64,000 nt of DNA from a virus (lineage: Duplodnaviria; Caudoviricetes), in IMG/VR virus record IMGVR_UViG_3300029319_000032, positions 165-64,164 of that record; one strand, written 5' to 3'. Below the pieces are notes generated by a model. The model saw nothing but the letters and a program-made list of their open reading frames with translations. It was not told the origin of the DNA and made no database searches. Position numbers and translations under genes: made by a program. This document shows positions 27,279 through 50,709 of the stretch, piece after piece (positions within the stretch are counted from its first letter, which is position 1; each line of letters opens with the position of its first letter).

Positions 27279-28628
27279 TTAATCGGAGTAGAGCTCGTTT
27301 AAACGGTCTCTAAATTTTTGCTTTGCTTGTTCAGGTGTGTCTAGTATTGATGCACTATCACCGTGATAACCCACATCAAACTTACAAGTTGTTCCATACC
27401 TGTTTTTGGCTATAATAATCTGTTGCCCAAACTCTCCATGTTCAGCTTGCTCATATTCATATACATATGGATAATAGTTAAAGATTACGATTTCTGCATC
27501 TTGCTCAAGATTACCAGACTCAGCAAGGTCGCTGAGCCTTGGAATCTTATCTACACGATGCTCTATGTTACGATTTAGTTGAGAGACTAATATAACAGAA
27601 CAATCAAGTTCTTTTGCAAGCCATTTATATCTTCTTGTCACTTCGGCGATACGATGTCTGACATCTCTATTATCACGCTGTGAAAATTCAATAAAACCTA
27701 TGTGGTCATCAATGATTACATCAGGTCTTATCTTTTTGGCTTCTTGAATGCCTTCATCTAGACCTCTTAAATTATCAAATAAATGAAGCGATTTGTAATA
27801 CTTTTTTATAAAATCTAAACCTTTTTCTATTTCTTCTCTATGTTCTGATGCATTGTTACGCATTTGTTTGTTTGGTACGGTAGTATGCATTGCTAAAAAC
27901 TTTTTAACAATCTCTACTCTTGGCATTTCTCTACTAATAAACATAACCTTTTTACCATCAAGTATCATATTTTTGGTCACATTAAGAGCTAAAGTACTTT
28001 TACCATTTCCAGGTCTACCAGCAATAATAGATATTTCACCTTTGGTCATACCAACAATAGCTTTATCAATAGAAGCAATACCAGTTTGTACTAAATTCTT
28101 TTTTGCAAAGATAGATTGTATCAGCTCATCATCAAGTCCTTCCATAGACTGATGCTCCATTTTAATCATATCATTGAACTTCTCTGATATTTTACCTAAA
28201 TAATCAATGTCTGATGACACATCTTTATATGATGTATCTTTTTCTATTCTGTCTTTGAAACCTACAATGCGTTTCCATAGTTGTCTTCTTACAAACAAGT
28301 CATAAATTGTTTTACAGTGTGTTTTAAATGTTGCTTCTGTTATGATGTCATTTTGTAGACCAGAAACATAGTAGGCAAGCTTATGACCTTTTTCTCCTAG
28401 AAAGTTTGATACCGTAGCTACATCTATATCTTTGTTTGATTCGTGTAAATAATACATAGCTCCCCAAATATGCTGGTGGTCATCCATGTAAAACACTTTG
28501 CTGGTAGTAATAAAGCTTAACGCTTCTTGCATTTTTTCTGGGTTTCTAAGTACACAACCTAAAACTTGTTTTTCAGATACGCCACTATACATCTTTGACA
28601 CATCTATATTTTTATCAAAAGCATCCAT
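27279..28628 (-). CDS. dnaB: DnaB-like replicative helicase
   Basis: Walker A GRPGNGKS, SQLNR, DLAESGNLEQDA, AKNRYG, and an N-terminal DnaB-like domain. Confidence 0.92.
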   Translation of the reverse strand: MDAFDKNIDVSKMYSGVSEKQVLGCVLRNPEKMQEALSFITTSKVFYMDDHQHIWGAMYYLHESNKDIDVATVSNFLGEKGHKLAYYVSGLQNDIITEATFKTHCKTIYDLFVRRQLWKRIVGFKDRIEKDTSYKDVSSDIDYLGKISEKFNDMIKMEHQSMEGLDDELIQSIFAKKNLVQTGIASIDKAIVGMTKGEISIIAGRPGNGKSTLALNVTKNMILDGKKVMFISREMPRVEIVKKFLAMHTTVPNKQMRNNASEHREEIEKGLDFIKKYYKSLHLFDNLRGLDEGIQEAKKIRPDVIIDDHIGFIEFSQRDNRDVRHRIAEVTRRYKWLAKELDCSVILVSQLNRNIEHRVDKIPRLSDLAESGNLEQDAEIVIFNYYPYVYEYEQAEHGEFGQQIIIAKNRYGTTCKFDVGYHGDSASILDTPEQAKQKFRDRLNELYSD

Positions 28629-28979
28629 CTAATCCTCCTTTAAATCTGGTGGTAAGCTATCTAATCTCTTACGCTCTATCATTAATTTGTTCTCATACTT
28701 CTTATTCTCATTCCTTAATATACCTATAAAATAATATACATCATAGCCTTTTCCAGCTAAATCTTTGCGTTCCCAAATAGTAATACAATGTTTGATTACT
28801 TCGTCGTCAATGTCTTGACAAGCTTTAAGTAAAGTATAGGTAGTTAGGTCATCTAACGCTGATATGAAGAGGTCGTTTAAACGCTCTAATGTATTATCAT
28901 CTACATTCTTTTGTAGCCTTGCTATCATCTTTGGATAGTTTTTCAAGGCATTGGACCAGCCACAAGCTGGACATCTCAT
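28629..28979 (-). CDS. Possible replication accessory/helicase-loading protein
   Basis: CPACG zinc knuckle and YYFIGILRN (DnaD-domain-like); immediately upstream of the helicase. Confidence 0.35.
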   Translation of the reverse strand: MRCPACGWSNALKNYPKMIARLQKNVDDNTLERLNDLFISALDDLTTYTLLKACQDIDDEVIKHCITIWERKDLAGKGYDVYYFIGILRNENKKYENKLMIERKRLDSLPPDLKED

Positions 28980-29395
28980 TTACGCTCCTTACAAGGAAGT
29001 TCTTCTGGGCATTCACGTTTATCTAAAGGAACACGCTTACCTAAGAACTCCCTCATAGGAACTTTCCCTTTTGGCAATGTATAGTACCTCCAAGGTCTTT
29101 CGCATCGTGGACAACGATAAGGCTGGAACTTTGACTTATTGCTGTAAGATACTTCATTCTTCTTACGCTTCTCTGATTCAATGTATTCATCATCAAACCA
29201 CTCATCATCAAAGTAATGCTCTAAGGTCTCTTTAGAGTATAGAGACTCATAGATATATAACCAGACTTTTTCTGCGAATTTTTTAATCATCGCAAACTTC
29301 ACAATTAGGATTAACTTGTGAAAGTTGCATATCTTTTTGTTTCTGTTCTTTGTCCATTGCTTCAATAATCTTTTTAGCAATGTCCATAAGAACAT
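28976..29395 (-). CDS. Hypothetical protein with CPRC zinc motif (start uncertain)
   Basis: ORF track; CPRC motif. Confidence 0.45.
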   Translation of the reverse strand: MFLWTLLKRLLKQWTKNRNKKICNFHKLILIVKFAMIKKFAEKVWLYIYESLYSKETLEHYFDDEWFDDEYIESEKRKKNEVSYSNKSKFQPYRCPRCERPWRYYTLPKGKVPMREFLGKRVPLDKRECPEELPCKERK

Positions 29396-29415
29396 TGATT
29401 TCGTTTGTGCTTAAA

Positions 29416-29619
29416 TCAATTTTCATAGCTATACTCTGCTACTACTTTACCCTGAGGTGTTGATATATGATTAGTTTTAATAGGATGTCCTTCATTACGT
29501 AAATCCCATATTCTAGCACTTAAACGAAAACAACCAAACTTTTCTAGGGCTGATATTGGTGTAATACGCTCACCATTTTTTAAAGCCACTAGAATCATAT
29601 CATTCTGTGTTTTGTTCAT
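29416..29619 (-). CDS. Helix-turn-helix DNA-binding protein (HTH_39-like)
   Basis: ITPISALEKFGCFRLSARIWDLRNEGHPI pattern. Confidence 0.7.
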   Translation of the reverse strand: MNKTQNDMILVALKNGERITPISALEKFGCFRLSARIWDLRNEGHPIKTNHISTPQGKVVAEYSYEN

Positions 29620-29896
29620 CTTCTGTTTTCTCCTTATCACCATCTAGTTCTGTAAGAACATTGTTAATGTAGTTGTTAGCCAAAAACCTTTTTTCATTAA
29701 GTTGTTGTTCTAACATTTGTGTTTCTTGAGCTATTTGATTAGCTCTAACGTAAGCCATTTGTCCTTCATTACTTAAGTCGCTCAAGTAGAACTTAATTTC
29801 TTCTCCATCACGACTAATGACTTGCTCACGCTCTTGTGGTTCTTGTATAGCATCTAATTCTTGTTTTGCCATATCAAGCTCGTTTACTTTTCCCAT
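29600..29896 (-). CDS. Hypothetical coiled-coil protein
   Basis: SD GGAGG; in operon. Confidence 0.6.
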   Translation of the reverse strand: MGKVNELDMAKQELDAIQEPQEREQVISRDGEEIKFYLSDLSNEGQMAYVRANQIAQETQMLEQQLNEKRFLANNYINNVLTELDGDKEKTEDEQNTE

Positions 29897-29898
29897 TG

Positions 29899-30171
29899 TT
29901 ATTCCTCCATGTTTAAATCGGCAAAATTTGCTCCATTATAACACTCAGAGCATATACCTGTTTTTTCTTCTTCTATGAATGAGTTTCCGAAGGGAAGGGC
30001 TGTACAGCAAGAGCTTTGCCAATCCCTGTCATCACACATTTCACACTTGTCAATAGAGATAGTAGGGCTATCTCCTTTCTTGCTATTTCCACAATAAGAA
30101 CATTGAATTTCAGGAACATACATTCCGTACTTATCACTTTTTTCTTTTTGCACAAATTCTAAATAGCTCAT
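29899..30171 (-). CDS. Cys-rich zinc-finger protein
   Basis: CSYC, CEMC, SCC and CSEC motifs. Confidence 0.6.
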   Translation of the reverse strand: MSYLEFVQKEKSDKYGMYVPEIQCSYCGNSKKGDSPTISIDKCEMCDDRDWQSSCCTALPFGNSFIEEEKTGICSECYNGANFADLNMEE

Positions 30172-30500
30172 TCTTCTTTATCTTTAAATTGTTTAATCAT
30201 CGCAATTAAACTTAAGTAATAATCCTGAGACATAATAGCTAAATCTTCACCTCTGTCTTCACCTACAAATTGTACGTGTATTTCTTTTGTTGGTTTTAAG
30301 TGTTTAGCTAATACTTTTCTTTTCTTACATTGAACATAGATATTATCTTCAATAACCATATCTACTTCTTGAGCTAGACCTCTTGACCTACCATCACTAC
30401 CCCAAGTTCTTTCTGCTTTTAAATCAAATCCTTGTGCTTTTTCAACACACCTTCTTTCGTAATACGTTCCTCTTAATTTATTTTTCGCTGGCATTGTCAA
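30168..30500 (-). CDS. PD-(D/E)XK Holliday-junction-resolvase-like nuclease
   Basis: GTYYER...VDMVI...VQCK pattern. Confidence 0.6.
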   Translation of the reverse strand: MTMPAKNKLRGTYYERRCVEKAQGFDLKAERTWGSDGRSRGLAQEVDMVIEDNIYVQCKKRKVLAKHLKPTKEIHVQFVGEDRGEDLAIMSQDYYLSLIAMIKQFKDKEE

Positions 30501-30738
30501 ACCTTCCTTTCCAGTATTGCATCATCCACAGTTTATCTTTCTTATTATGTCTAATATCCATTCCAGCAAATATCCACCAAGCTCCATACTTTGTTCTAAA
30601 TTCTTCTGCTGTCTCTTTTCTCCATTTGTCGTTTTGAACTACTAGACTTTTTCTTTGTTGTAAATGCTTTGGCACATTTTTTTCTTTTCGTTGTTTCCAA
30701 GCTAATTCTCTTTTGTTTAAATCCATCAAACTCCCCAA
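30478..30738 (-). CDS. Hypothetical protein
   Basis: ORF track; overlaps neighbours in operon fashion. Confidence 0.5.
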   Translation of the reverse strand: MGSLMDLNKRELAWKQRKEKNVPKHLQQRKSLVVQNDKWRKETAEEFRTKYGAWWIFAGMDIRHNKKDKLWMMQYWKGRFDNASEK

Positions 30739-30878
30739 TCGCTTATGTCGTGCTCATCTTCAGATAATCTAATTATCTCATTGTGTCTTCTCTCTTCGTC
30801 ATCAATACGTTTGCGTAGCCATAAATATCCTTTGTAAAAAAAATATAATGTTGTTGCTACTACAATAAAATCAATCAT
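30726..30878 (-). CDS. Small membrane protein (50 aa, MIDFIVVATTLYFFY...)
   Basis: SD AAGGAG; N-terminal hydrophobic helix; below the ORF-track cutoff. Confidence 0.5.
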   Translation of the reverse strand: MIDFIVVATTLYFFYKGYLWLRKRIDDEERRHNEIIRLSEDEHDISDWGV

Positions 30879-30967
30879 GTTTACTCCTTTCAAGTGATGC
30901 GTGGGAATCTAGTATGAGATGTAGTAGATGAGCTAAGAGGTATAAGACCCCCACGCTAAGTTATTAA

Positions 30968-31489
30968 TTAAAACGGCAAATCATCATCCTCCATCACTGC
31001 TTCTTTGCCTCTTGCTTCTGCTTTTAACACCATTTTAACTCTAGGTGTTTTCATATCGTTTCCTTCTCTTCCTACCCACTCTTCTATAATTACTTCCACA
31101 TCAAATAGAAAGCGTTTAAACGACTCTAAGTCAAGCTCTGGTAATATTAGTTTATCATCCTTTTTTTGAACCATATCCATCATATCACAAAGAGCGTGAT
31201 AACCAGCATTACTTCCCATATCACTTTGTAGTTGTGGGTATTTTGCTGGGTCAGGTTTCTTAAATCTAAAAAACCCTTTGTGTTTAACATCCTTACCTTC
31301 AATATCAAACACTGGTTCATAGATGTCAGCTAAAAACTTACCACTAACTACTATGTCTTTCTTTACATTAAGGTCTTTAACCAAAACCTTCTCATATTTA
31401 CCTGGCTTAACAGAACTACCACCACCCTGTGATTTTGGTTCGTACCAAGCATCTTGTCCAAGTATATTATCTAAATCAGTATTATCCAT
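30968..31489 (-). CDS. Single-stranded DNA-binding protein (putative)
   Basis: Acidic C-terminal tail DDDLPF; follows the SSAP gene. Confidence 0.6.
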   Translation of the reverse strand: MDNTDLDNILGQDAWYEPKSQGGGSSVKPGKYEKVLVKDLNVKKDIVVSGKFLADIYEPVFDIEGKDVKHKGFFRFKKPDPAKYPQLQSDMGSNAGYHALCDMMDMVQKKDDKLILPELDLESFKRFLFDVEVIIEEWVGREGNDMKTPRVKMVLKAEARGKEAVMEDDDLPF

Positions 31490-32096
31490 TTTTTACCTCC
31501 TTCTTAGGTTTCTTCTTTTGTAGCTGTTCTACATAGCCATCAAAATTATTTGTGTTTAGTTTTTTACTTCTTATTGCTACTTCAATGCTTTCAACAAAAG
31601 CTTTGTCTCTACCTTCTAACAATGTCATCAAGTAATCATATTGCTCTTTTGATATTTCTTGTGGTTTGTCATCTTCTGGCAAATCTTCGCCCCTATAAAT
31701 ATAAAGACCAAGACCAAATAAAGCAAAACATTTTACCAAACATCTTTTGATAGAGTTGTTAATCTGTGTTGCTGTTGGTTCTTTGATAGCTTTATTATAG
31801 TTATCCATAACAGCATGAACTTCTGTTCTTGTAACACCTTCAATAGTTACAGATACTTTAACAAAACATCCACTATCTGTTATCATATATGGAGCTTTAT
31901 GCCATCCATCCCAATCATTTTTGCTTACAGGTATATCAAATTCGTGAGTTTCCCAGGTAGCATCTGGGTATACAGACAGAACATATTGAACTGCATCACT
32001 CCAAGATAGATAGTCATAATTACCTTTCTTCTCTTTAAACTCATTTACATTTATTTTATTAAGTGTTTCAAACACTGATAGTTTTTTCGTTGCCAT
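31482..32096 (-). CDS. Sak3/DUF1071-like single-strand annealing protein
   Basis: YLSWSDA...INNSIKRCLVKCFALFGLGLYIY-GEDLP signature. Confidence 0.8.
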   Translation of the reverse strand: MATKKLSVFETLNKINVNEFKEKKGNYDYLSWSDAVQYVLSVYPDATWETHEFDIPVSKNDWDGWHKAPYMITDSGCFVKVSVTIEGVTRTEVHAVMDNYNKAIKEPTATQINNSIKRCLVKCFALFGLGLYIYRGEDLPEDDKPQEISKEQYDYLMTLLEGRDKAFVESIEVAIRSKKLNTNNFDGYVEQLQKKKPKKEVKNG

Positions 32097-32307
32097 CGTA
32101 TTCCTCCTCATATAGTTCTATAAATTTATCTACACTCACCCAGCTATCTGAATTACCTTCGTGTACCATTGGTATTCCAGCTGTATCTGGTCTCATCGTA
32201 AAGTCTCCGTAATTATTGCTATTCGCCCAATCCATTAACATAAGGGCAAAGTCCTCTGACCTCACAATATTTTTCACATTTTTTTCCGTTCCAAGTTTCT
32301 TCATCAT
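32068..32307 (-). CDS. Hypothetical protein
   Basis: SD GGAGG; in operon. Confidence 0.5.
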   Translation of the reverse strand: MMKKLGTEKNVKNIVRSEDFALMLMDWANSNNYGDFTMRPDTAGIPMVHEGNSDSWVSVDKFIELYEEEYDGNEKTISV

Positions 32308-33097
32308 TACACCTCCTCGGTATTGTGTTAGTATTTAGATGTTCTAAAAGTGCATCTCTCTTGCTTGTAAAATACGAAACAATCTCTTTATTGTCAACCA
32401 TTGGTATGTTAACAAAATAAATATTTTTATCTACCCCTCTGGCAATAGCTGAATGTGTACCAGCATCTCTGACATTCATTTGTAGTTTCATTGCTTTAAC
32501 TTTATATCCCTTTTTCTCTAATAAATATCTATACATATTTACTTGATACAACCAGTCTCCAAAGTCTGCCTTGCTCTCATCTCTCTGGAACACTTTAACC
32601 TGTTTAAACGTTCCCTTCCTACCCCAAGCTCCTGACTTCTTGTATCGTTCACCTGATGGGTCTGGCATCATAACGTGCGTCATTCCTAATACTTTAGATG
32701 CTTTGAAACTACCTGTGTTTTTATAATCAATAAGGGTTTCTGTATCTTTATCATAAAAGTCTAAAATACCTGTAATATCTAATCCTTCTAGTTTTTCTTC
32801 TTGTATTGCATTGTCATCAAGCTCTTGGCTTTCTAAGTGCAAGTGATGTATAGTTCCCATAACAGCAAATGCCATATCTTGTGGGTCTACATAATATTCT
32901 TCAGTTCTTTTTAGATAAGCCTCACAGGTTCCAGATAATAGCTCTGTTGTGCTTGGAGGTCTGTCGTTTGGTCTCTGGTCTGACATCATCTTTAATGTGG
33001 CTACACTCATACAACGCTCTGACATACGACATTCTTTTAGACATCGTTTAAACGTAATTTGTTCTCCATCTGGACAAATAAATCCTACTGCACTCAT
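32219..33097 (-). CDS. PD-(D/E)XK (Cas4-like) exonuclease
   Basis: GTIHH, GILD...IDYKNT, QVNMY and C-terminal CxxYCxxxxxC; partner of the SSAP. Confidence 0.75.
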   Translation of the reverse strand: MSAVGFICPDGEQITFKRCLKECRMSERCMSVATLKMMSDQRPNDRPPSTTELLSGTCEAYLKRTEEYYVDPQDMAFAVMGTIHHLHLESQELDDNAIQEEKLEGLDITGILDFYDKDTETLIDYKNTGSFKASKVLGMTHVMMPDPSGERYKKSGAWGRKGTFKQVKVFQRDESKADFGDWLYQVNMYRYLLEKKGYKVKAMKLQMNVRDAGTHSAIARGVDKNIYFVNIPMVDNKEIVSYFTSKRDALLEHLNTNTIPRRCNDEETWNGKKCEKYCEVRGLCPYVNGLGE

Positions 33098-33257
33098 AAA
33101 AACTCCTTTTTTAAATTTTTCTGGAGTAGGTCGCCAGACCAATGTATTTGCAAAATTTAATTAACAAAGGTGAACAGGGTTAAAACCTGCAACACTCCTT
33201 TTAAGTGCTATTAAATTTTTATCTACAATATCTACTCCAGACTGAAAATCTATGTAT

Positions 33258-33350
33258 AAAAAATAAAAGAGGCAAGAAATAAATCTTGCCCCTTTCCACA
33301 CACACTAAGGAGTTCAATGAAAACATCATTGAAGTTGTCGAATTGACAAC
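33258..33350 (-). ncRNA. Predicted ~93-nt small RNA with an anti-Shine-Dalgarno seed
   Basis: Promoter upstream, two perfect hairpins, unpaired CUCCUUAGUGUGUGUGG, then an intrinsic terminator (GGCAAGA/UCUUGCC plus U-tract). Confidence 0.65.
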
Positions 33351-33355
33351 GCTTT

Positions 33356-33384
33356 AGTTTAACACCATTACTCTATGGTGTCAA
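33356..33384 (-). promoter_or_regulatory. Strong sigma70-type promoter (TTGACA-17-TAAACT, extended -10 TG)
   Basis: Direct match on the minus strand; no minus-strand ORF follows before the terminator. Confidence 0.75.
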
Positions 33385-33389
33385 ATCAA

Positions 33390-33596
33390 TTATAAATTAT
33401 TTTTTAGATTAATTAGTCTATGACCTTTACTCATATCAAACTCTATATCATAGTCTTGCATCAGTCTCACTATCGCATCTTTTTCGTTTTTAGCTACATA
33501 GTGATAGGTAAATGAGTTTTGCTTTTTTGGTATAAAGAATACAAAACTTGCAAGTTTCCCACTATCAATCTTCTTATATGTTTCAATATCTAGCAT
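33390..33596 (-). CDS. Hypothetical early protein
   Basis: SD GAGG; TTGACC upstream at ~33662. Confidence 0.55.
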   Translation of the reverse strand: MLDIETYKKIDSGKLASFVFFIPKKQNSFTYHYVAKNEKDAIVRLMQDYDIEFDMSKGHRLINLKNNL

Positions 33597-35028: not shown

Positions 35029-35328
35029 TCAAGCATTTTCTCTTAATTTGCTAATTCTATAATCAAACTCTTCTTCTGTTTCGTTTAAACGCTCTAAGTG
35101 TTTATGGTCATCATAGATTTCTCTAGATAGTTTTCTAACTCTACCTTCTCTGTTATCCTCAGTTCTAAAAACAAACCAGCGTTTAACTTCAGTGGTCTGC
35201 CAAGCCATAGCAATAGCCTCATTTATATCTTCATCAGATAAAAATCCCCTTATTTCAATCTCATATTCACAAGTCCATAATCTAGTTTCTTTTATTTTGT
35301 GTGTTTTGCTCATCATCTCCTCCTTCAT
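35029..35328 (-). CDS. Hypothetical early protein
   Basis: ORF track; SD present (true start probably ~35313). Confidence 0.55.
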   Translation of the reverse strand: MKEEMMSKTHKIKETRLWTCEYEIEIRGFLSDEDINEAIAMAWQTTEVKRWFVFRTEDNREGRVRKLSREIYDDHKHLERLNETEEEFDYRISKLRENA

Positions 35329-35491
35329 CTTTAAATATTACAATGGTTGGTATTACATTCAGTACTTGTTTTTTTGCTTTCTTCAGCAATAAATCACCAG
35401 CACTCATAGTGTGTTCAAATGCCCAGTTAGTGTGTCCATACTTATCTCTGCACATCTCATCAATATAATCAGTAATAAATTTAAATTTCAT
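35282..35491 (-). CDS. Hypothetical early protein
   Basis: SD GGAGG. Confidence 0.55.
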   Translation of the reverse strand: MKFKFITDYIDEMCRDKYGHTNWAFEHTMSAGDLLLKKAKKQVLNVIPTIVIFKDEGGDDEQNTQNKRN

Positions 35492-35979
35492 ACTTCCTCC
35501 TTTGTTATGTTATATAAAAATGTTGGTGGTACAAATACCTCTTGTTCCTGTTCCCAATAAACTAAAAAGTCAAGAGCGTTTAAACGACCTGTGTAAACTA
35601 CTGGTTGTTTGTCTTTCTTGACCTTTGCAAACCTAGTTGCAAACCAATAAGCTCTGTTCTTATCCAGTGTCCAGCTAAAGCCGTGTTCATACTCTCCAAG
35701 AGTACCTCTGTATAAGAGTATCTCATCGTGTTCCATCAGTATATCTTCGTATGTTTCATACTCTTTTGTGTTCATACTAAATCCTATATCATCGTAGTGA
35801 TAAGTTAGTATGTCCTGTAAATCTTTGTTCGTCATCATCGTGTGAACATTATCAATAGCTGTGTAGTCTTGTCTGAAATACTGCCAAAACTTTGATGGGG
35901 CTATCTTGTTCTTAGCTAGGTCTTGAACCATCATAGCTATGCCACCCTGTTGGTAGTAGTTGTTTATTATGTCTTCCAT
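35488..35979 (-). CDS. Hypothetical early protein (LYRG...SWT...A-WFA...E-EV motif, ADP-ribosyltransferase-like pattern)
   Basis: An R...S...ExE arrangement is visible; own promoter and SD GGAGG. Confidence 0.45.
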   Translation of the reverse strand: MEDIINNYYQQGGIAMMVQDLAKNKIAPSKFWQYFRQDYTAIDNVHTMMTNKDLQDILTYHYDDIGFSMNTKEYETYEDILMEHDEILLYRGTLGEYEHGFSWTLDKNRAYWFATRFAKVKKDKQPVVYTGRLNALDFLVYWEQEQEVFVPPTFLYNITKEEV

Positions 35980-36069
35980 ATACCCTCCGTGTGTGTTAGT
36001 GAGTTGCTTGACATTAGCCAATCCTACAACCAATGTCAAGCTATTTATTTGACCTCGTTTAAACGATGC

Positions 36070-36381
36070 CTACAACCATATTGAACATTGATTAGTTTGT
36101 AGCTTGAAGATTTTTCTCCAAGCTCTAATCATTAAGTTCCCTACAATCGTTATTACACTTATCCAAGTAAAGAATAACAAGATGCTTTCCAGAAATATAT
36201 GTCCAGCATTTGTTAAGTATGTGTAGTCGTGATGACTTAATAACAGCACTAAAAATACACATACCATTTGAGAGTAGATAAATACGTTCATCAACACTCT
36301 GTTTGTATTTGTTAAAGTTTTACTTAAATCGTTTCTTAATTCCATTGAGTTTTTGCTCATACCTGTTGTTTTATTATTCAT
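36070..36381 (-). CDS. Early membrane protein (2 TM)
   Basis: SD GGAGG before ATG at 36381; two hydrophobic segments. Confidence 0.55.
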   Translation of the reverse strand: MNNKTTGMSKNSMELRNDLSKTLTNTNRVLMNVFIYSQMVCVFLVLLLSHHDYTYLTNAGHIFLESILLFFTWISVITIVGNLMIRAWRKIFKLQTNQCSIWL

Positions 36382-36394
36382 ATTGCCTCCTTTG

Positions 36395-37306
36395 TTAAGC
36401 ACTAATATATCCACTTCTTGACCAGTTCCAATGTTCTCTATCTTGAACAATGTCTAGGTAAGCTGTCTGAAAGCTCTTTGCTTTTTCATTAACGTAGTAA
36501 GATGGGTCGTATCTATGACCTCTGCTGTCTTTACGCTCTTTCTCATAAGCTTGATAGCTGTCAATCAAGTTGCCTAACATACCAGCAAATCTTGACTGCT
36601 CATCATAAGAGCCCTGTCCTATTACATTGATGCAAAGCTGTCTAGCTTTTCTAAACTTCTTCTTGATAATCACTGGGTCGTTTAAACGGCTCTTGTACAT
36701 TGCTGATAATTTTGCCCAGAACTCTTCTTTGATTTGCTTATCGTCTTTCCACTTCAGATTATTTTCTAGGTGTTGTCTTCTCTCGCTTGCTTTGTCTTGA
36801 GCTGTCATATACGGCATATCTTCTTTCAAAGATAAGTGTAAGTATTTGACCACTAATCCATTTCTATTTATTGCTTTTTTAAGACCAGTAATACTTTGTA
36901 AGCCTCTGATGTTTCTACCAAAAGTATGTGTAGAATAAGAGTAAGAACTTTTACCACATATAGTAGCTGTGTATTCTCTGCCTCCGTGTGCTCCTCTATG
37001 TCTAAGCCAATCCTCTCTATACCACAATGGTTTACCATCTTTAAGTACTAATACAACATCATCTTTGTTAATAGAGATGGTCTCATACCAGTTATGACTA
37101 CGACCTCGTAGCTGTCTCCACTCTGCATCCTCTTGAGCAATAACAAACACGATACCTTCTTTTGATATGGTGTCGTTTAAACGGAGCTCATTGTCTTGCA
37201 ATTTGTTCCAATCTATTCCTAGTTTTGCTCCAAGATTTTTAAACCTTCTTAACTGGCGATTAGCATTCCAATGGCTCAGTTTTAAGTTGTTAATTGTTTT
37301 ATTCAT
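36395..37306 (-). CDS. Hypothetical early protein (303 aa)
   Basis: Promoter TTGACA-17-TAGTAT and SD GGAGG upstream. Confidence 0.75.
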   Translation of the reverse strand: MNKTINNLKLSHWNANRQLRRFKNLGAKLGIDWNKLQDNELRLNDTISKEGIVFVIAQEDAEWRQLRGRSHNWYETISINKDDVVLVLKDGKPLWYREDWLRHRGAHGGREYTATICGKSSYSYSTHTFGRNIRGLQSITGLKKAINRNGLVVKYLHLSLKEDMPYMTAQDKASERRQHLENNLKWKDDKQIKEEFWAKLSAMYKSRLNDPVIIKKKFRKARQLCINVIGQGSYDEQSRFAGMLGNLIDSYQAYEKERKDSRGHRYDPSYYVNEKAKSFQTAYLDIVQDREHWNWSRSGYISA

Positions 37307-37333
37307 AATACCTCCTAGTTTATGTGTTAGCTA

Positions 37334-37362
37334 ATACTATTAAATTCTAAAACAAGTGTCAA
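37334..37362 (-). promoter_or_regulatory. Early sigma70-type promoter
   Basis: TTGACA-17-TAGTAT; spacer motif shared with promoters at ~27247, ~36039 and ~38652. Confidence 0.65.
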
Positions 37363-37380
37363 GATTTTTTTTGACCTCGT

Positions 37381-37599
37381 TTAAACGCTCTCTCCCATTT
37401 GTTTCAGTTGTTTGTTTATTCCATCCAACATTATTTCTGCTTGTGTGTTTTCAGTTTCTAATTTAGCATACTCTTGACTTTCTTCATCATAATATCTTCC
37501 ATCAAAATCCTCAAACTCTGTTTCCATTATTCTCTTGTTGCATTGTATCGTAGTCTCGCAACTCTTTTTTATGCTCATTACTATTGTTTTGTAGTCCAT
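37381..37599 (-). CDS. Hypothetical early protein
   Basis: SD GGAGG; ends within a GTTTAAAC palindrome. Confidence 0.6.
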   Translation of the reverse strand: MDYKTIVMSIKKSCETTIQCNKRIMETEFEDFDGRYYDEESQEYAKLETENTQAEIMLDGINKQLKQMGESV

Positions 37600-37627
37600 A
37601 TTATCCTCCTCTCGTTTAAACGCTCTC

Positions 37628-38173
37628 TTACAACAGCTTAGTGCCTACTCCAAATTTATCTTCTACTAACTCATTGATTTTTTTGACTAAATCTCTGTCA
37701 AACAGATAGGCATTACCAACTAATGGTCTGGTAATAGTGTTGTAGTCTCTGAAAAATAAGTCAGCCTCATCCATTAGTTTTATTGTACTACCTATAACAT
37801 CACTCATACTATCAAACTCTCCATTATTAGCGTAAAATCCAATAACATAATATCCTTCCATATCCTTATTAAATCCTCGCTTTTTGTCGTGAGCCCACTG
37901 CCAGCTGTCTGGCTCTTTTACCAAGTGAAATCCAGCTGTTAGCTCTCTGTCATAAAAAGGTATTTGTTTTACTTTGTTTTCTTCACCAGTAATAGCATCG
38001 TAGTTTGCTAAGTCTGGGCTATAAGCAAATAAATGTTGATTAGCCCAAGGGTGCCCTGGAGGTAAAGCTACATAACCACAGCCCCATCCATTTTTATTTG
38101 TTTCTTGTTTTCTAATAGTCCAGTAGTAAGTTGTACCATCTGCTTTTGTTTCTTTTATCCATCTTTCTTTCAT
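37628..38173 (-). CDS. Hypothetical early protein (GWGCGYVALPPGHPW motif)
   Basis: SD GGAGG; motif type common in phage early proteins. Confidence 0.65.
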   Translation of the reverse strand: MKERWIKETKADGTTYYWTIRKQETNKNGWGCGYVALPPGHPWANQHLFAYSPDLANYDAITGEENKVKQIPFYDRELTAGFHLVKEPDSWQWAHDKKRGFNKDMEGYYVIGFYANNGEFDSMSDVIGSTIKLMDEADLFFRDYNTITRPLVGNAYLFDRDLVKKINELVEDKFGVGTKLL

Positions 38174-38194
38174 ATTGTCCTCCTTAGAGCTCGT

Positions 38195-38590
38195 TTAAAC
38201 GCTCTGTGTTTTATTTTTCTTTGTTCCGTTTTCTTTTCTACCAAACATCCAAGCTTTACTAAAATTGTTCAAGCTGTCCAGTGTCTCTGGGTCTGTTGGT
38301 AAAAAAGACATAAGAAATCTTTTTTGTTCTGCTGTTTGACCCCAAGCATCAACATTATTTATAACTGGTCGCATTGGGTTGCTCTCATCTCTTCCAGCAT
38401 CAGAGTAAAGCATATTTAAAGCCATCTCTGCATCTTCAGTTGTCATATTCAAAGTTATATTTCTTTTTGTAAGATGACAAAATATAGTTAAAGTTTTCTT
38501 TTCGTTTAACTCTTTGATAGCCTCTCTAGTGCTTTGTGCTCTTCCGTTGTAGTCTCTCAAAGCTTTTGTAAATCTTTTAGTTATTTTCAT
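38195..38590 (-). CDS. Hypothetical early protein
   Basis: SD GGAGG before ATG at 38590; ends within a GTTTAAAC palindrome. Confidence 0.65.
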   Translation of the reverse strand: MKITKRFTKALRDYNGRAQSTREAIKELNEKKTLTIFCHLTKRNITLNMTTEDAEMALNMLYSDAGRDESNPMRPVINNVDAWGQTAEQKRFLMSFLPTDPETLDSLNNFSKAWMFGRKENGTKKNKTQSV

Positions 38591-38888
38591 ACTGCCTCCT
38601 TTGTGTGTTTTGCAATATGTAGGAAATTTGCAAATTCTAAAGCCAATGTCAAGCAAAAAAATAAAAATATTTTAAAAAAGTTTTCATAGTATAAAAAAGC
38701 TCAGATGTCAAGAACTTTTTTTTTCTGGGTGATTTTGCTCCTCTATAAACGCCAGAGAATAGCCCTAGAACGCAATAAAATAAAAAAAAGGTCTTATGGT
38801 ATGCAAAAAATGTTTTGTCGTCTGAAACTTTGTTCAAATATTCCAGAATTTAGAGCTATAAAAAACACGCTGTTTAAACGCTGTTAAG

Positions 38889-38995
38889 TTATCCACAACT
38901 TATCCACATCATACTTATCCACAAGTTATCCACAAAGTTATTAACAAGTTATCCACATAAAAGTTATCCACATTTTATCCACAATTTGTGGAAAA
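38889..38995. repeat. DnaA-box array (7 perfect TTATCCACA plus 2 degenerate boxes)
   Basis: Perfect boxes start at 38889, 38900, 38915, 38926, 38949, 38964 and 38975; TTATTAACA at 38938; inverted TGTGGAAAA at 38987. Confidence 0.9.
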
Positions 38996-39032
38996 CTTCT
39001 AGACGCTGTTTAAACGCTCTGAAAAAAAGGGC

Positions 39033-39067
39033 AAAAAAAAAGGGCTATTTCTAGCCCTCTTTTTTTA
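39033..39067. terminator. Bidirectional intrinsic terminator flanking the DnaA-box array
   Basis: AGGGCTA-TTTC-TAGCCCT flanked by an A-run and a T-run. Confidence 0.75.
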
Positions 39068-39079
39068 GTTGGTCTTGTT

Positions 39080-39556
39080 TTAGAATGTAAAGCCAGCAAC
39101 ATCTTCTGGCATTACCCAACCGCAAGCTGTGTAAATAGATTTCATATTTTGAAAATCTTTTACGATGCTCTGGCTGGTGTGCTTGCCTCCGCCTATGACA
39201 TATTTTTTATCTGGGTCAATTTCTACAAGCTCTGTTGGTGTAGAAATATATGCTTTACCTTTAATCTGTCTTACTCTACAAGTTAAGCCGTAAGTTTCGA
39301 ACAAGCCGTTTAAACGCTCTCTTGTTGTTCGTGTGTTATAACCAGCTAAAGAGAACCAAAGCCCCTTGCTGATTTTATTGAATTGAGCTATCCAATTATT
39401 ATGAAGATACATATCTGATTGTACAGCGTTCTTCTCCATTTTTGAGCCGTTTAATACTGGCATCTCAATAGTTCTCACTTCTACTCTGGTATTATCCATT
39501 TTCATTGGCTTTTGATTTAAAAAAGCCGTTGCTGTTTTTAGTGTTATTTGTCTCAT
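39080..39556 (-). CDS. Hypothetical early protein (LHNNWIA...TRTTRERLN motif)
   Basis: SD GGAGG; coupled to the upstream ORF. Confidence 0.7.
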   Translation of the reverse strand: MRQITLKTATAFLNQKPMKMDNTRVEVRTIEMPVLNGSKMEKNAVQSDMYLHNNWIAQFNKISKGLWFSLAGYNTRTTRERLNGLFETYGLTCRVRQIKGKAYISTPTELVEIDPDKKYVIGGGKHTSQSIVKDFQNMKSIYTACGWVMPEDVAGFTF

Positions 39557-39777
39557 TATTTCACCTCCTGTGCTGTTTGTAATTCCTCTTCTAAATCCCA
39601 GAGCTTTAATAAGTCTGGGCTAATGCCAGCCTCTACTTCTAAAGGCTGTCCAATGGCTAAATCTCCGTTAATACAAATGTCTCTTTGCTCTTCTATTTTC
39701 CATTTTAAATTTTCTATATCTACTTTAATAATTCCTCTTCTGATATAGTCTAATTTTACTTGTCTTGAATAGGTCAT
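39556..39777 (-). CDS. Hypothetical early protein
   Basis: SD GGAGG; coupled. Confidence 0.6.
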   Translation of the reverse strand: MTYSRQVKLDYIRRGIIKVDIENLKWKIEEQRDICINGDLAIGQPLEVEAGISPDLLKLWDLEEELQTAQEVK

Positions 39778-39923
39778 TATTTCGCCTCCTGTCTTCTAGC
39801 TTTCGCTCTGTTTAAACGCTGTTTAATCTTCTTAGCGTCTCTGTTCTCTCTGGCTTGTCTGCCTTGCTCTGCTTGAGCCTCTAAGCCCTTGATTTGTCTC
39901 AAATTTAAGCCTGTATAATTCAT
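39777..39923 (-). CDS. Small basic early protein (48 aa, MNYTGLNLRQIKG...)
   Basis: SD GAGGAGG; TAATG coupling to the next gene; directly downstream of the hammerhead. Confidence 0.6.
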   Translation of the reverse strand: MNYTGLNLRQIKGLEAQAEQGRQARENRDAKKIKQRLNRAKARRQEAK

Positions 39924-39953
39924 AATACCTCCTCAGTATGTTTGTTAATTTAA

Positions 39954-40020
39954 GCCTAAGACTAGAGACGCCGTTTAAACGACGCCCCCAGTTTCGCCCT
40001 TGTGGGCTCGTCAGTTAGGC
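39954..40020 (-). ncRNA. Hammerhead ribozyme (type I)
   Basis: Minus strand reads GCCUAA-CUGACGA-GCCC(ACAA)GGGC-GAAA-stem III-GUC^UUAGGC: full catalytic core with three paired stems. Confidence 0.9.
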
Positions 40021-40857
40021 ATCCTCCCATTTTAGCTCTTCTGTGATGTTGCCGATGGTGTCGTCAAGGTTTTGCTTGCCGTTCACCTTCTCGTTATCAT
40101 TCACTAAACTAAAAAATTTGTCGATGCTAATAATAGCCTTTCCGTATTTTTTGCCTAGTTGAATATGATACTCTCCTTCACCACAGCATAAACAAGTTCT
40201 GCTTGTCATCTGCTCTATTCTCAAACGATTTGTATTAAATCCGTGGTCGCAATCGTTCTCTGTGCCGTGGCATACAACTTTTAAATTTCTATTCGTATCA
40301 CGGCGTAAGCCCTCAAGGTTTACCTGTCTAAGCGGAAATTTTCCGATAGTCTTAATGATGCCGTTTAAACGACGTTTAAGCTCTTCGCCAGCGTATGTAC
40401 TGGTTAGCTTGCCTTCAAGTCCGATGGTTCTCGCCATCTTGTCGAACGCTCCGCCTTTTCTGTGTCCGCTTTTGTTGTCGTCAATAGCGTGAATTAATTC
40501 GTGAGCTAGTGTGTCCAGAACCTCGACGCTGTTATCTTTTCCAGTCGTTGCGATGTTCATCTGAATAATATTCACAACTTCAGCTTTTGGGCTTGGGTTG
40601 TCTGCTGTTCCTCTGGTGTAAGCCGTTGGGTAGCATCTGCCTAGCGTCGTATGTCCGTGGGTCTTATTCGCTGTCTTCATCTCTGAAACATTGATACGGA
40701 TATTTTTCGGAACTTTAAAGCCGTGCGGTCTAAATACTTTGTCGCTTAGCTCTTGCGTCGCTTTTTCGAACCATTGCGTAACTGCTACGTCGTGGTTCAC
40801 TACTTTAAAGCCTCTAATCTTTTTTGCGTTTGGGGTCGCCACCGCTTGTTTATTCAT
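40015..40857 (-). CDS. SprT-like zinc metalloprotease domain protein
   Basis: TLAHELIHA...GH; C-terminal Cys cluster; first gene of the early operon. Confidence 0.65.
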   Translation of the reverse strand: MNKQAVATPNAKKIRGFKVVNHDVAVTQWFEKATQELSDKVFRPHGFKVPKNIRINVSEMKTANKTHGHTTLGRCYPTAYTRGTADNPSPKAEVVNIIQMNIATTGKDNSVEVLDTLAHELIHAIDDNKSGHRKGGAFDKMARTIGLEGKLTSTYAGEELKRRLNGIIKTIGKFPLRQVNLEGLRRDTNRNLKVVCHGTENDCDHGFNTNRLRIEQMTSRTCLCCGEGEYHIQLGKKYGKAIISIDKFFSLVNDNEKVNGKQNLDDTIGNITEELKWEDA

Positions 40858-40920
40858 TTTATTTCCTTTGTTTATGTGTGTTAAAATCATAAGACAATAT
40901 AACATATTTTACACTTTGTG

Positions 40921-41530
40921 CAAATATTTTTTTTTGTCGTCATAAAATCGGCTCAAATCTGGGGCTCTGGCTTAGGCTGTTTAAACCATCCAAGCTTTAA
41001 ATCTGGGGCTGGTAATATAGGTATTTAGGGTATGTTTAAACGCTGTCTATATATATGGGATGGGTCTGGCTTGGGTCTAGATATAGGAACTATATATAAT
41101 TTCAGGCGTATGAAAATGGTCTGTAATATAATAATAATCTGGCGTTTGTCAAGTGATGCTAGCTCTCCGTCGACAAACAAGTTTCTGAAAAGTTGGCTAG
41201 AAAAGAAATAAAAAATAATGCTTGACTTTGTCATATTCTTGTAAGTCTAACAATATCAAGACTTAATAGCAATCTCAACGAACTTCTAGAAATCCTAACT
41301 AGAAAAAGACTGGGGGGGCGATTTAAAAAAAAGAACCTCACAAATACTTGGGCTATTTTTTTAGTTTGTGTTGTGTCTGGAAGTGTTGATATTGCTAGAG
41401 TTACAGGAACGGCTAACTATATAACTATACTAGCTAGTAGGTTTGTATAGTTATCCTAACTAAAGTTAACAAAAAAAACGGCAGATGTCAAGTACAAAGT
41501 AAGCAAGGGTGTAAAAAATATTATAATTTT
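40921..41530. other. Non-coding divergent switch region (candidate genome end/packaging and promoter region)
   Basis: No credible ORF; transcription direction flips; several TTGAC motifs, AAATCTGGGGCT twice, and a G7 run. Confidence 0.45.
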
Positions 41531-48561: not shown

Positions 48562-48584
48562 CAGCACATCGGAAGGAAAATAAA

Positions 48585-50708: not shown

Positions 50709-50709
50709 G

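What the first reader, a model, noticed from the sequence alone, without database searches (positions are those of the whole stretch)
27297..41041. Highly iterated palindrome CGTTTAAACG concentrated in the early/replication half
Seen: GTTTAAAC starts at 27297, 28875, 31114, 32602, 33046, 33685, 34430, 34630, 35083, 35578, 36057, 36680, 37175, 37379, 37614, 38193, 38872, 39008, 39308, 39810, 39973, 40363, 40979 and 41034. I found only 4 elsewhere (19307, 24899, 43642, 51209) and none in 1-19 kb. Most are CGTTTAAACG, often followed by CTC. A rough base-composition estimate gives under 1 expected copy in this 14 kb. Copies occur in ORFs in different frames (RLN, FKR, V-stop), so selection acts on the DNA. 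Phages normally avoid palindromes, so enrichment suggests binding sites for a host or phage protein in the first-transcribed DNA (protection, tethering, decoy, or transcription activation). Two copies lie 17-18 bp upstream of an early -35 box in the shared context TTGACCTCGTTTAAACG.
Basis: partly seen in the sequence, partly recalled or inferred. Interest (0 to 1): 0.8.

Follow-up and report, generated by a model that had tools for sequence, protein, structure and literature searches.

The report
Selected GTTTAAAC word array, phage early genes
An uncultured phage keeps two dozen exact copies of the eight-letter palindrome GTTTAAAC in its early genes, even choosing codons to make them, and they look like docking sites for a phage protein, possibly a DNA-dependent protease encoded by the first early gene.

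Summary
GTTTAAAC occurs 28 times in the window and 24 times in the minus-strand early/replication block, where 0.5-2.2 copies are expected. The excess survives a codon-aware null.

Selection acts on the DNA:
- All 9 early R-L-N tripeptides are spelled CGTTTAAAC.
- 135 of 139 homologous sites in 11 related contigs are exact, although their flanks have diverged.
- One-mismatch variants are not enriched.
- Flanks show dyad preferences without arm covariation, which fits a dimer reading duplex DNA rather than a hairpin.

A sister clade with the same replication module has no array. It has a different exact word, GAGCAC.

The word also forms arrays in many unrelated uncultured phages (GC 0.34-0.54). 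The gene that tracks them best is a SprT/Spartan-like zinc protease with a zinc-ribbon tail. Here it is the first early gene, and it is predicted to form a homodimer. Two actinophage isolates with this gene carry the one-letter variant GTGTAAAC; in the one counted, 18 of 22 copies lie at gene starts.

Earlier agents of this scan reported the same word, and the SprT link, on other DNA. I found no paper describing it.

The parts
26756..41234 (-). Early/replication gene block that holds 24 of the 28 sites
   Evidence: Negative GC and AT skew over 26-41 kb. Contains DnaB helicase (27279-28628), Sak annealing protein (31482-32111) and a PD-(D/E)XK exonuclease (32219-33142).
40015..40857 (-). SprT/Spartan-like zinc metalloprotease with a C-terminal Cys zinc ribbon; first early gene; candidate reader of the word
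   Evidence: PF10263 at E 3.5e-5, 24.0 bits, against a cut-off of 25.6. HExxH motif and conserved Cys residues. Best fold match is 6mdx, titled 'Mechanism of protease dependent DPC repair', prob 0.98, E 2.4e-3. Homodimer score 0.81 against 0.00 for the best control. Co-occurs with arrays.
41125..41152 (-). Best sigma-70-like promoter match of the block (TTGACA-16-TATATT), upstream of the SprT-like gene
   Evidence: 11 of 12 positions. This is a consensus match only; the scan as a whole found no more matches than shuffles did.
41034..41041 (.). Site in the leader upstream of the SprT-like gene
40979..40986 (.). Site in the leader upstream of the SprT-like gene
40363..40370 (.). Site inside the SprT-like gene, read as R-L-N
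39973..39980 (.). Intergenic site 34 nt after the SprT-like stop codon; kept at 33-34 nt in all 7 clade members
39810..39817 (.). Site in a conserved 48-aa basic ORF (39777-39923), read as R-L-N
39308..39315 (.). Site in the Kyano_Gp96-like gene (39080-39556), read as R-L-N
39008..39015 (.). Intergenic site on one side of the DnaA-box cluster (context AGCGTTTAAACAGCGT)
38872..38879 (.). Intergenic site on the other side of the DnaA-box cluster (same context)
38193..38200 (.). Site that supplies the TAA stop of 38195-38656; 20 nt before the next start codon
37614..37621 (.). Intergenic site 15 nt before a start codon
37379..37386 (.). Site that supplies the TAA stop of 37381-37599; 17 nt upstream of a TTGACA (37362)
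37175..37182 (.). Site in the 303-aa gene, read as R-L-N
36680..36687 (.). Site in the 303-aa gene, read as R-L-N
36057..36064 (.). Intergenic site 17 nt upstream of a TTGACA and 18 nt before a listed start codon
35578..35585 (.). Site in the 183-aa gene, read as R-L-N
35083..35090 (.). Site in the 99-aa gene, read as R-L-N
34630..34637 (.). Site near the 3' end of the 118-aa gene, 23 nt before the next start codon
34430..34437 (.). Site in the 82-aa gene, F-K frame
33685..33692 (.). Site that supplies the TAA stop of 33687-33932
33046..33053 (.). Site in the exonuclease gene (F-K-R). The sister clade has F-E-H, spelled with GAGCAC, at the same codons
32602..32609 (.). Site in the exonuclease gene
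31114..31121 (.). Site in the 173-aa gene
28875..28882 (.). Site in the 116-aa gene, read as R-L-N
27297..27304 (.). Site 18 nt before the dnaB stop codon, read as R-L-N. The sister clade has GAGCAC/GTGCTC at the same alignment columns
19307..19314 (.). Isolated site in a late gene
24899..24906 (.). Isolated site in the 1629-aa late gene
43642..43649 (.). Isolated site in the terminase-small-like gene
51209..51216 (.). Isolated site in the loop of a GC-rich inverted repeat, in the second (diverged) copy of the late region

Best explanation
GTTTAAAC is a DNA address word. Each copy is a docking site on double-stranded phage DNA for a sequence-specific, two-fold symmetric phage protein, and selection keeps every copy exact.

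The most likely reader is the product of the first early gene (40857-40015). This is a SprT/Spartan-like zinc metalloprotease with a C-terminal zinc ribbon, and it is predicted to form a homodimer.

Proposed mechanism, inferred: the protein is made first, binds the roughly 24 sites that lie mostly at or near gene junctions of the early block, and acts there on DNA-bound proteins. As a DNA-dependent protease it would clear or process them, or it would otherwise modulate early expression.

Shown here: the word is real, selected at the DNA level, exact, conserved, dyad-flanked, lineage-specific, and statistically associated with this gene.

Inferred: that a protein binds the word, that this protein is the SprT-like one, and what it does there.
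For: Enrichment: 24 observed against 0.5-2.2 expected. Inside genes, 14 against 0.65 under synonymous-codon shuffles.

DNA-level choice of spelling:
- 9 of 9 early R-L-N tripeptides are CGTTTAAAC, against 1 of 3 in late genes.
- 4 of 5 early x-F-K-[LPHQR] contexts carry the word.

Purifying selection: 135 of 139 homologous site pairs in L001-L011 are exact, with +-30 nt flanks at 50-100% identity.

All-or-none word: one-mismatch variants occur 9 times against 12.8 expected.

Dyad flanks in 61 non-redundant contexts:
- A at -5 in 50, C at -1 in 54, G at +8 in 45, T at +12 in 38.
- No complementarity between arms beyond chance, for example 12 Watson-Crick pairs against 13.5 expected at -2/+9.
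- This fits a dimer on duplex DNA, not a hairpin.

Lineage behaviour:
- The close clade keeps the array (16-30 sites per 37-43 kb, against 0-1 for the reversed word as control).
- Five sister-clade genomes (99-100% complete) have 0-2 sites and no SprT-like gene (0 of 5). They carry GAGCAC instead.

The word forms arrays in unrelated phages, with 4-40 sites per contig against 1-5 in controls.

SprT-like homologues:
- 10 of 27 array contigs against 1 of 23 control contigs (Fisher p 0.0055).
- 7 of 10 larger contigs by blastp.
- 7 of 7 members of the window's clade.
- 0 of 5 terminase-related isolates, which also have only 0-3 sites.

Host independence: array phages include genomes with GATC absent and genomes with GATC in excess.

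Homodimer model: score 0.81, best of 3 controls 0.00. The mark was reached by 20 of 30 proteins solved as pairs and 1 of 23 solved as single chains. Runs agree in at least 83% of contacts and the partner's pLDDT is at least 77. My own alignment was used, so those counts hold only roughly.

One-letter variant in isolates with an annotated SprT-like protease:
- Microbacterium phage Zeta1847: GTGTAAAC 22 times against 0.09 expected.
- Arthrobacter phage Tweety19: 10 times in its last 10.9 kb against 0.02 expected.
Against: - No binding was measured.
- The association is not universal. G020 (94% complete, 12 sites), G023 and G010 show no SprT-like gene, and 17 of 27 array contigs, mostly small fragments, gave no hit.
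- The array phages share terminase and other genes. The number of independent events behind the correlation is therefore small, and linkage within a mobile early module could explain it.
- Five SprT-carrying actinophage isolates have 0 exact GTTTAAAC. The family as a whole is not tied to this exact word.
- In two of those isolates a phage sigma-factor gene lies two genes upstream of the SprT-like gene and could be the real partner of the variant word there. No sigma domain was found in the window, though.
- The variant word GTGTAAAC is not a palindrome, which sits awkwardly with a symmetric dimer.
- Sites flank the SprT-like gene in all 7 clade members, but not more than site density predicts in distant array phages (9 of 19 with a site in the 400 nt upstream).
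- The Pfam score of the window's protein is just below the curated cut-off.
Confidence: 0.4

Rival explanations
1. The sites are an operator or 'stoperator'-type array read by another, unidentified phage regulator (or a host one). It shuts down, insulates or times early transcription. The SprT-like gene is only a linked passenger of the same early module.
For: - The same evidence for a dimer-bound duplex site applies.
- Sites are biased to gene junctions: 11 of 24 lie within 100 nt upstream of the next start codon, against 5.6 at random, p 0.011.
- Two sites lie 17 nt upstream of a TTGACA, and two bracket the DnaA-box cluster.
- Sister clades use different words, as Cluster A phages do with stoperators (PMC6550527, passages read).
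- Most early proteins have no known family.
Against: - No repressor, integrase or other HTH specific to the clade was found. The one HTH found is conserved in the clade that lacks the word.
- Sites do not overlap the promoter-like matches.
- 8 sites lie deep inside genes.
- A host factor is unlikely, given arrays in phages of GC 0.34-0.54 with opposite GATC regimes.
Confidence: 0.25
2. The word acts in RNA as a gene-junction signal for translation control or processing, like the start-associated sequences of actinophages.
For: - Three sites supply a TAA stop, and four lie 15-23 nt before a start codon.
- In unrelated array phages the word often sits just before the ribosome binding site, or between it and the ATG.
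- In Zeta1847, 18 of 22 copies of the variant word lie within 35 nt of an annotated start codon, p 3e-14.
Against: - The palindrome and the mirrored flank preferences, without covariation, have no reason to exist in single-stranded RNA.
- 8 of 24 sites lie deep in genes, and 4 lie in non-coding leader or origin DNA.
- The variant word in Zeta1847 occurs in both orientations, 16 and 6, although all genes are on one strand.
- The RNA libraries I could lay held only assembled contigs of relatives, so nothing can be said about RNA ends.
Confidence: 0.1
3. The word is mainly a recombination linker that lets early gene cassettes be swapped (PeSL-like modular shuffling).
For: - 6 of 54 homology breakpoints against six relatives fall within 8 nt of a site centre, against 1.4 expected, p 0.003.
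- The 72-aa gene 37381-37599 is replaced in L006 exactly between two sites.
- The phage encodes a Sak annealing protein and an exonuclease.
Against: - Breakpoints are just as enriched at start codons (10 of 54 against 2.1) and stop codons (11 of 54 against 1.9).
- One indel is joined in the ribosome-binding-site repeat, not in the site.
- Linker use does not explain exact conservation of sites inside conserved genes, or the dyad flanks.
- The sites have no stem-loop, and only 2 of 24 are associated with a promoter.
Confidence: 0.07
4. The excess comes from a mutational or repair drive, or from a methylation system (HIP1-like, very-short-patch-repair-like). Alternatively, the word is a Chi-like self marker against a host nuclease.
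For: - It is an exact 8-bp palindrome present in all reading frames, as HIP1 is.
- The few variant sites are mostly transitions at the outer G/C: ATTTAAAC twice.
- The sister-clade word GAGCAC is asymmetric, genome-wide and strand-biased in late genes, as a Chi-like word would be.
Against: - The excess is confined to one block of the genome.
- No methyltransferase of PF01555, PF00145 or PF02086 is found in the window's genome.
- One-transition neighbours are not depleted.
- Flank preferences are dyad-symmetric.
- A palindrome cannot give the orientation that Chi-type words need.
Confidence: 0.06

Closest known systems
Stoperators and operators of Cluster A mycobacteriophages (L5/Bxb1-type repressor; PMC6550527, passages read)
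   Same: Dozens of copies of one short word are dispersed through a phage genome. Most are not in promoters and many lie at gene junctions. The word is conserved, and it differs between related clades together with its reader.
   Different: Stoperators are 13-bp asymmetric sites in one orientation relative to transcription. They are read by the immunity repressor of temperate phages and spread over both genome arms. Here the word is an exact 8-bp palindrome largely confined to the early block (24 of 28 copies). No repressor or integrase was found, and the best-correlated gene is a protease-like one.
HIP1 (GCGATCGC), the highly iterated palindrome of cyanobacteria (PMC6604393, search listing and abstract start only; the rest recalled)
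   Same: An exact 8-bp palindrome, strongly over-represented, present in all reading frames, of unknown function.
   Different: HIP1 is genome-wide in cells and contains a methylated CGATCG. Here the word is block-limited in a phage, no methyltransferase was found, and the word tracks a phage gene rather than a host.
PeSL cassettes of T4-type phages (PMC2839356, abstract read)
   Same: Repeated elements in the hyperplastic early region, with some cassette swaps joined at them.
   Different: PeSLs are a sigma-70 promoter plus a terminator stem-loop. Here there is no stem-loop, only 2 of 24 sites lie next to a TTGACA, and junctions are no more frequent at sites than at other gene borders.
Start-associated sequences, and the short inverted repeats upstream of start codons, in actinophages (Clusters K, O, EF, EG; PMC7302621, passages read)
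   Same: Cluster-specific short words near start codons with unknown function. The variant word GTGTAAAC in Zeta1847 behaves this way (18 of 22 at gene starts).
   Different: Those motifs are 13-18 bp, intergenic, and specific to one cluster. GTTTAAAC is 8 bp, also lies inside genes, and recurs across unrelated phage lineages.
SprT/Spartan DNA-dependent metalloproteases (PF10263; PDB 6mdx)
   Same: The candidate reader has the HExxH core, a zinc-binding tail and the fold. That these enzymes need DNA for activity is recalled, not taken from a call.
   Different: Sequence-specific docking on an address word is not, to my knowledge, described for this family. A homodimer is predicted here.

Membership tests
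Stoperator array (Cluster A mycobacteriophages) | Many dispersed copies of one conserved short site, mostly outside promoters | tested here: met
   24 sites in 14 kb, none overlapping a promoter-like match.
Stoperator array (Cluster A mycobacteriophages) | Asymmetric 13-bp site in one orientation relative to transcription | tested here: not met
   The core is an exact 8-bp palindrome. Only the weak flanks are asymmetric: AGAGC on the transcribed strand at 9 of 24 sites, against 1 of 24 on the other strand (my count).
Stoperator array (Cluster A mycobacteriophages) | Read by the immunity repressor of a temperate phage | tested here: not met
   No repressor or integrase among the ORFs scanned. 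Not every small ORF was scanned.
HIP1-type highly iterated palindrome | Exact 8-bp palindrome in all reading frames, far above expectation | tested here: met
HIP1-type highly iterated palindrome | Genome-wide distribution, and a cognate methyltransferase acting on the core | tested here: not met
   24 of 28 copies lie in one block. No PF01555, PF00145 or PF02086 in the genome.
PeSL (promoter-early stem-loop) cassettes | Sigma-70 promoter joined to a terminator stem-loop | tested here: not met
   No arm covariation. 2 of 24 sites lie next to a TTGACA.
PeSL (promoter-early stem-loop) cassettes | Rearrangements between relatives joined at the element | tested here: inconclusive
   6 of 54 breakpoints fall at sites against 1.4 expected. 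Start codons (10 of 54) and stop codons (11 of 54) are equally enriched.
Start-associated sequences (SAS) | Motif at the ribosome-binding-site position, immediately upstream of start codons | tested here: not met
   Only 4 of 24 sites lie 15-23 nt before a start codon, and 8 lie deep in genes.
SprT-like metalloprotease (PF10263), for the candidate reader | HExxH zinc site and a match to the family profile | tested here: inconclusive
   HExxH plus a third His are invariant in 19 aligned homologues. The Pfam score is 24.0 bits against a cut-off of 25.6. 7 of the 18 homologues carry a precomputed PF10263.
SprT-like metalloprotease (PF10263), for the candidate reader | Spartan-type fold with a zinc-binding subdomain | tested here: inconclusive
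   Model pLDDT 71.6. Best PDB match is 6mdx_A at prob 0.98, E 2.4e-3, TM 0.25/0.36, which is weak.
SprT-like metalloprotease (PF10263), for the candidate reader | DNA-dependent protease activity; binding to the word | not testable with these tools
   Needs biochemistry.
Type II restriction-modification target (PmeI-type site) | Site avoided by the phage or protected by a cognate methylase | tested here: not met
   The site is enriched, not avoided, and no methylase was found.

The most novel reading that the evidence does not exclude
A 'protein plus address' system of phages. A Spartan-like, DNA-dependent zinc protease docks as a dimer on an 8-bp address word that the phage seeds through its own first-expressed DNA. 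There it clears or processes proteins bound to that DNA, such as host silencers, defence factors or stalled complexes. Word and reader move together between phage lineages and drift together (GTTTAAAC, GTGTAAAC).
Probability: 0.22. Interest if true: 0.85.

Novelty: new variant of a known kind. Interest (0 to 1): 0.72.

Why it matters
If the reading holds, phages write a short address into their own DNA, at the cost of changing protein sequences, so that one of their first proteins can find that DNA. This would be selection on a DNA word across whole gene blocks.

It would also give SprT-like proteases a function. They are common in phage genomes (146 isolate records) and have no known role there.

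The idea can be tested directly. Cultured, harmless soil actinophages (Zeta1847, Tweety19) carry both the gene and a one-letter variant of the word.

Word arrays could also serve as markers of early regions, and of lineage-specific regulators, in uncultured phage genomes.

Tried and rejected
- **Close relatives among isolates.** None found by DNA. By protein, terminase and DnaB hits are all below 60% identity and the listed ones are at most 30%.
- **Prophage relatives or host.** A scan of genome contigs with the exonuclease alignment found nothing. The host is not identified.
- **Rfam.** Only two sub-threshold chance-like hits in the block.
- **Hairpin reading.** No arm covariation.
- **Promoter reading.** No fixed -10 downstream of the sites. 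No sigma-70 domain r2 in 5 genomes. One sub-threshold r4 hit, in G011 only.
- **Methylation reading.** No methyltransferase of three Pfam families in the window's genome. G008 alone has one.
- **KorA-operator likeness of an L036 word.** These proved to be local direct-repeat iterons, not a palindrome array.
- **DnaA-box cluster in the sister clade.** No cluster comparable to the window's; L030 has three boxes.
- **PDB sequence searches of four unknown early proteins.** Nothing below E 0.5.
- **Kyano_Gp96-like gene as reader.** 5 of 27 array contigs against 0 of 23 controls, but the five appear to be one lineage (GC about 0.5).
- **Autoregulation of the SprT-like gene.** Sites flank it in 7 of 7 clade members, but only 9 of 19 genomes overall have a site in the 400 nt upstream, about what site density predicts.
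- **RNA evidence.** Seven RNA-library runs hold 5-10% of the sampled words. The four I laid held only assembled contigs of relatives (mostly 90-95% alike), and no begin or end places were listed. This shows nothing about transcripts or habitat.
- **Programmed -1 frameshifting on U_UUA_AAC.** Considered and dropped, because 7 sites are intergenic and 3 are stop codons.
- **Supplementary files.** Those of PMC7302621 (motif figures) could not be seen and may list further actinophage motifs.

Full report
**1. The observation**

24 lie between 27297 and 41041. Dinucleotide shuffles of the window give 2.18 copies (largest 7 in 100).

The 24 sites fall in a block of negative GC and AT skew, that is, genes on the minus strand. 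The block encodes a DnaB helicase, a Sak annealing protein, a PD-(D/E)XK exonuclease and many small unknown proteins. This is an early/replication block lying between two plus-strand late blocks.

Markov models of order 0-4 fitted to the block predict 0.47-2.21 copies. Orders 5-6 predict 8-14, but only because nearly all 7-mers of the word occur inside the word (24 of 26 each).

A codon-aware null keeps each protein and each gene's codon usage. It gives 0.65 copies inside genes (largest 3 in 1000 shuffles) against 14 observed.

The genome otherwise avoids palindromes strongly (GATC 0 against 118 expected). GTTTAAAC is its only enriched 8-bp palindrome.

**2. Selection is on the DNA**

- All 9 R-L-N tripeptides of the early proteins are spelled CGTTTAAAC, one of 72 possible spellings. 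In late genes it is 1 of 3.
- Three sites supply a TAA stop codon, seven are intergenic, and the others use two reading frames.
- In eleven related viral contigs (exonuclease 86-97% identical), 135 of 139 homologous site pairs are exact. The 30 nt on either side are 50-100% identical.
- One-mismatch variants are not enriched: 9 observed against 12.8 expected. The word is all-or-none.

**3. Anatomy of a site**

From 201 sites I kept 61 non-redundant contexts. On the transcribed strand these read A(-5) S R G C(-1) GTTTAAAC G(+8) N N S T(+12).

The mirrored positions are C/G at -1/+8 (54 and 45 of 61) and A/T at -5/+12 (50 and 38 of 61). They give an 18-bp dyad. The arms do not covary beyond what the column frequencies predict. 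This is what a two-fold symmetric protein on duplex DNA would produce, and it argues against a hairpin.

The better-kept upstream half is purine-rich and follows the coding strand. This could simply reflect coding-strand composition.

**4. Where the sites are**

- Sites are biased towards gene junctions: 11 of 24 lie within 100 nt upstream of the next start codon, against 5.6 at random, p 0.011. Eight lie deep in genes.
- Two sit 17 nt upstream of a TTGACA.
- Two bracket a cluster of DnaA boxes.
- Two lie in the leader of the first early gene, and one lies 34 nt after its stop codon.
- Homology breakpoints against six relatives are enriched at sites (6 of 54 against 1.4). They are equally enriched at start codons (10 of 54) and stop codons (11 of 54). 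Cassette swapping at the word is therefore real in single cases but not specific to it.

**5. Relatives**

The close clade keeps the array in the same block: 16-30 sites per 37-43 kb, against 0-1 for the reversed word as control.

A sister clade shares the replication module (DnaB 65-67%, exonuclease 66-69% identical). It has 0-2 GTTTAAAC per complete genome. Instead, the exact asymmetric hexamer GAGCAC/GTGCTC is about ten-fold enriched through the whole genome.

At 3 of the 5 window sites inside shared genes, a sister-clade genome has its own word within two codons. One example is F-K-R against F-E-H in the exonuclease. I estimate about 0.8 such coincidences by chance. This is suggestive, and it could also reflect permissive protein segments.

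**6. The word elsewhere**

I scanned the viral collection for a 14-mer of the site consensus. Of the 113 loci returned, 31 had at least 4 sites at 0.6 per kb or more, and 27 of these lie outside the window's clade. Their GC ranges from 0.33 to 0.54. Their whole contigs hold 4-40 sites, against 1-5 in 23 control contigs from the same scan.

In these phages the word often sits just before, or within, the translation initiation region. Only the 8-mer is common to all; flank preferences differ between lineages. Some of these genomes lack GATC entirely and others have it in excess, so they are probably subject to different host restriction regimes. That points to a phage-encoded reader.

**7. A candidate reader**

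I ran tblastn with all window ORFs against the array loci. Only two proteins recurred outside the clade: the SprT-like protein (40015-40905) and a Kyano_Gp96-like protein.

| Set searched for a SprT-like homologue | Found |
|---|---|
| Array contigs | 10 of 27 |
| Control contigs | 1 of 23 (Fisher p 0.0055) |
| Larger contigs, by blastp | 7 of 10 |
| Members of the window's clade | 7 of 7 |
| Sister-clade genomes | 0 of 5 |
| Terminase-related isolates, which also lack arrays | 0 of 5 |

The proteins share HExxH, a third histidine and a C-terminal Cys zinc ribbon. The model's best solved match is 6mdx, an entry titled 'Mechanism of protease dependent DPC repair', and the match is weak.

A homodimer is predicted with score 0.81 against 0.00 for the best of 3 controls. 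Runs agree in at least 83% of contacts and pLDDT is at least 77. In the tool's calibration, 20 of 30 true pairs and 1 of 23 single chains reached the mark, and my own alignment was used. The model supports pairing. It does not show it.

**8. Tests against the SprT reading**

- Five actinophage isolates with annotated SprT-like proteases have no GTTTAAAC at all.
- An unbiased k-mer scan of two of them put the one-letter variant GTGTAAAC at the top. It occurs 22 times against 0.09 expected in Zeta1847, and 10 times against 0.02 expected in the last 10.9 kb of Tweety19.
- In Zeta1847, 18 of 22 copies lie within 35 nt of an annotated start codon (p 3e-14). They occur in both orientations (16 and 6).
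- In both isolates a phage sigma-factor gene lies two genes upstream of the SprT-like gene and is an alternative partner there. No sigma domain is found in the window or in four array contigs, apart from one sub-threshold hit.
- Three larger array contigs lack a detectable SprT-like gene.
- The array phages are mutually related (shared terminase), so the number of independent events is small.

**9. Verdict**

The finding is real and is not explained by composition, codon usage or protein motifs.

- The best-supported mechanism is an array of docking sites for a dimeric, sequence-specific phage protein on early DNA.
- The SprT-like protease is the best, but unproven, candidate reader.
- What the protein does at the sites is inference.
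- The rivals are: another regulator, an RNA-level signal, a recombination linker, and a repair drive or self-marker. They are ranked in the report with their tests.

**10. What is known**

Arrays of short words with lineage-specific sequence are known in phages. Examples are stoperators (PMC6550527, passages read), PeSLs (PMC2839356, abstract read), and SAS and short inverted repeats in actinophages (PMC7302621, passages read). HIP1 is a cellular 8-bp analogue.

Four full-text searches listed no paper on over-representation of GTTTAAAC or GTGTAAAC in phages. The passages I read in PMC7302621 mention no link to SprT-like genes.

Earlier agents of this scan reported the same word and the same gene link on other genomes. 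I reached the link before reading those notes. They are not independent evidence.

Noticed in passing
window 1-18300 and 45700-64000: The record holds about 1.4 genome lengths. Portal, capsid and tail genes at 1-18 kb recur at an offset of 45.4-46.0 kb as a diverged copy, not an identical one. This looks like two related strains joined head to tail in assembly, or a concatemer-like chimera. The genome unit is about 45.7 kb.
   Followed up: partly
window 38880-39000 (minus strand): A dense cluster of about nine DnaA boxes (TGTGGATAA) in a non-coding stretch. It lies between a terminator-like hairpin (39067-39032) and two TTGACA promoters, and is bracketed by two GTTTAAAC sites with an identical 17-bp context. 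It is probably a replication origin or a DnaA-titrating element.
   Followed up: partly
L021-L034, L042 (sister clade): The exact asymmetric hexamer GAGCAC/GTGCTC (extended A-R-GTGCTC-R-A) is about ten-fold enriched through whole genomes. Both orientations occur in early genes, and mostly GTGCTC on the coding strand of late genes. GAGCTC and GTGCAC are not enriched. Its reader is unknown and no SprT-like gene is present.
   Followed up: partly
window 1-45800: Extreme avoidance of short palindromes: GATC 0 against 118 expected, GGCC 1/41, CCGG 1/16, CGCG 2/11, CATG 58/160, TCGA 20/65, GAATTC 0/11.6, AGATCT 0/27.7. This implies unmodified DNA and hosts rich in restriction systems.
   Followed up: no
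window 40950-41110 and genome-wide: Direct repeats of the type CCAG(A/C)(G)CCCCAGATTT(A/G)A in the leader of the first early gene. GACCCA is enriched on the coding strand (32 against 6). A 12-mer TGTCGGTATAGG occurs 8-9 times.
   Followed up: no
L036: 3490-3590, 4462-4490, 8496-8520: A more distant relative has three local clusters of direct-repeat iterons AGCTAAACGG. They share the TAAACG half of the window's word.
   Followed up: partly
L184 (Microbacterium phage Zeta1847), L185 (Arthrobacter phage Tweety19): The cultured actinophages carry GTGTAAAC 22 and 10 times against fewer than 0.1 expected, almost always at gene starts. [quoted passage not shown] In Tweety19, two copies lie in the gap just upstream of the SprT-like gene.
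   Followed up: partly
window 42164-42535 (+): A 123-aa protein matches DUF1599, 'nucleotide modification associated domain 1' (E 3.7e-5, just under the cut-off). Next to it lie a metallophosphatase-like exonuclease and a second, very weak SprT-like match (41875-42216).
   Followed up: no
window 39777-39923 (-): A 48-aa, very basic helical ORF is 88-94% identical across the clade, inside the best-conserved DNA island of the variable early region. It contains one site and is preceded by another. It is a possible small DNA-binding protein.
   Followed up: no
window 51190-51235: The isolated site at 51209 forms the loop of a GC-rich inverted repeat (GGGGAGGGC ... GCTCTCCC) after a late gene. The first, diverged copy of this region has no site.
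   Followed up: no
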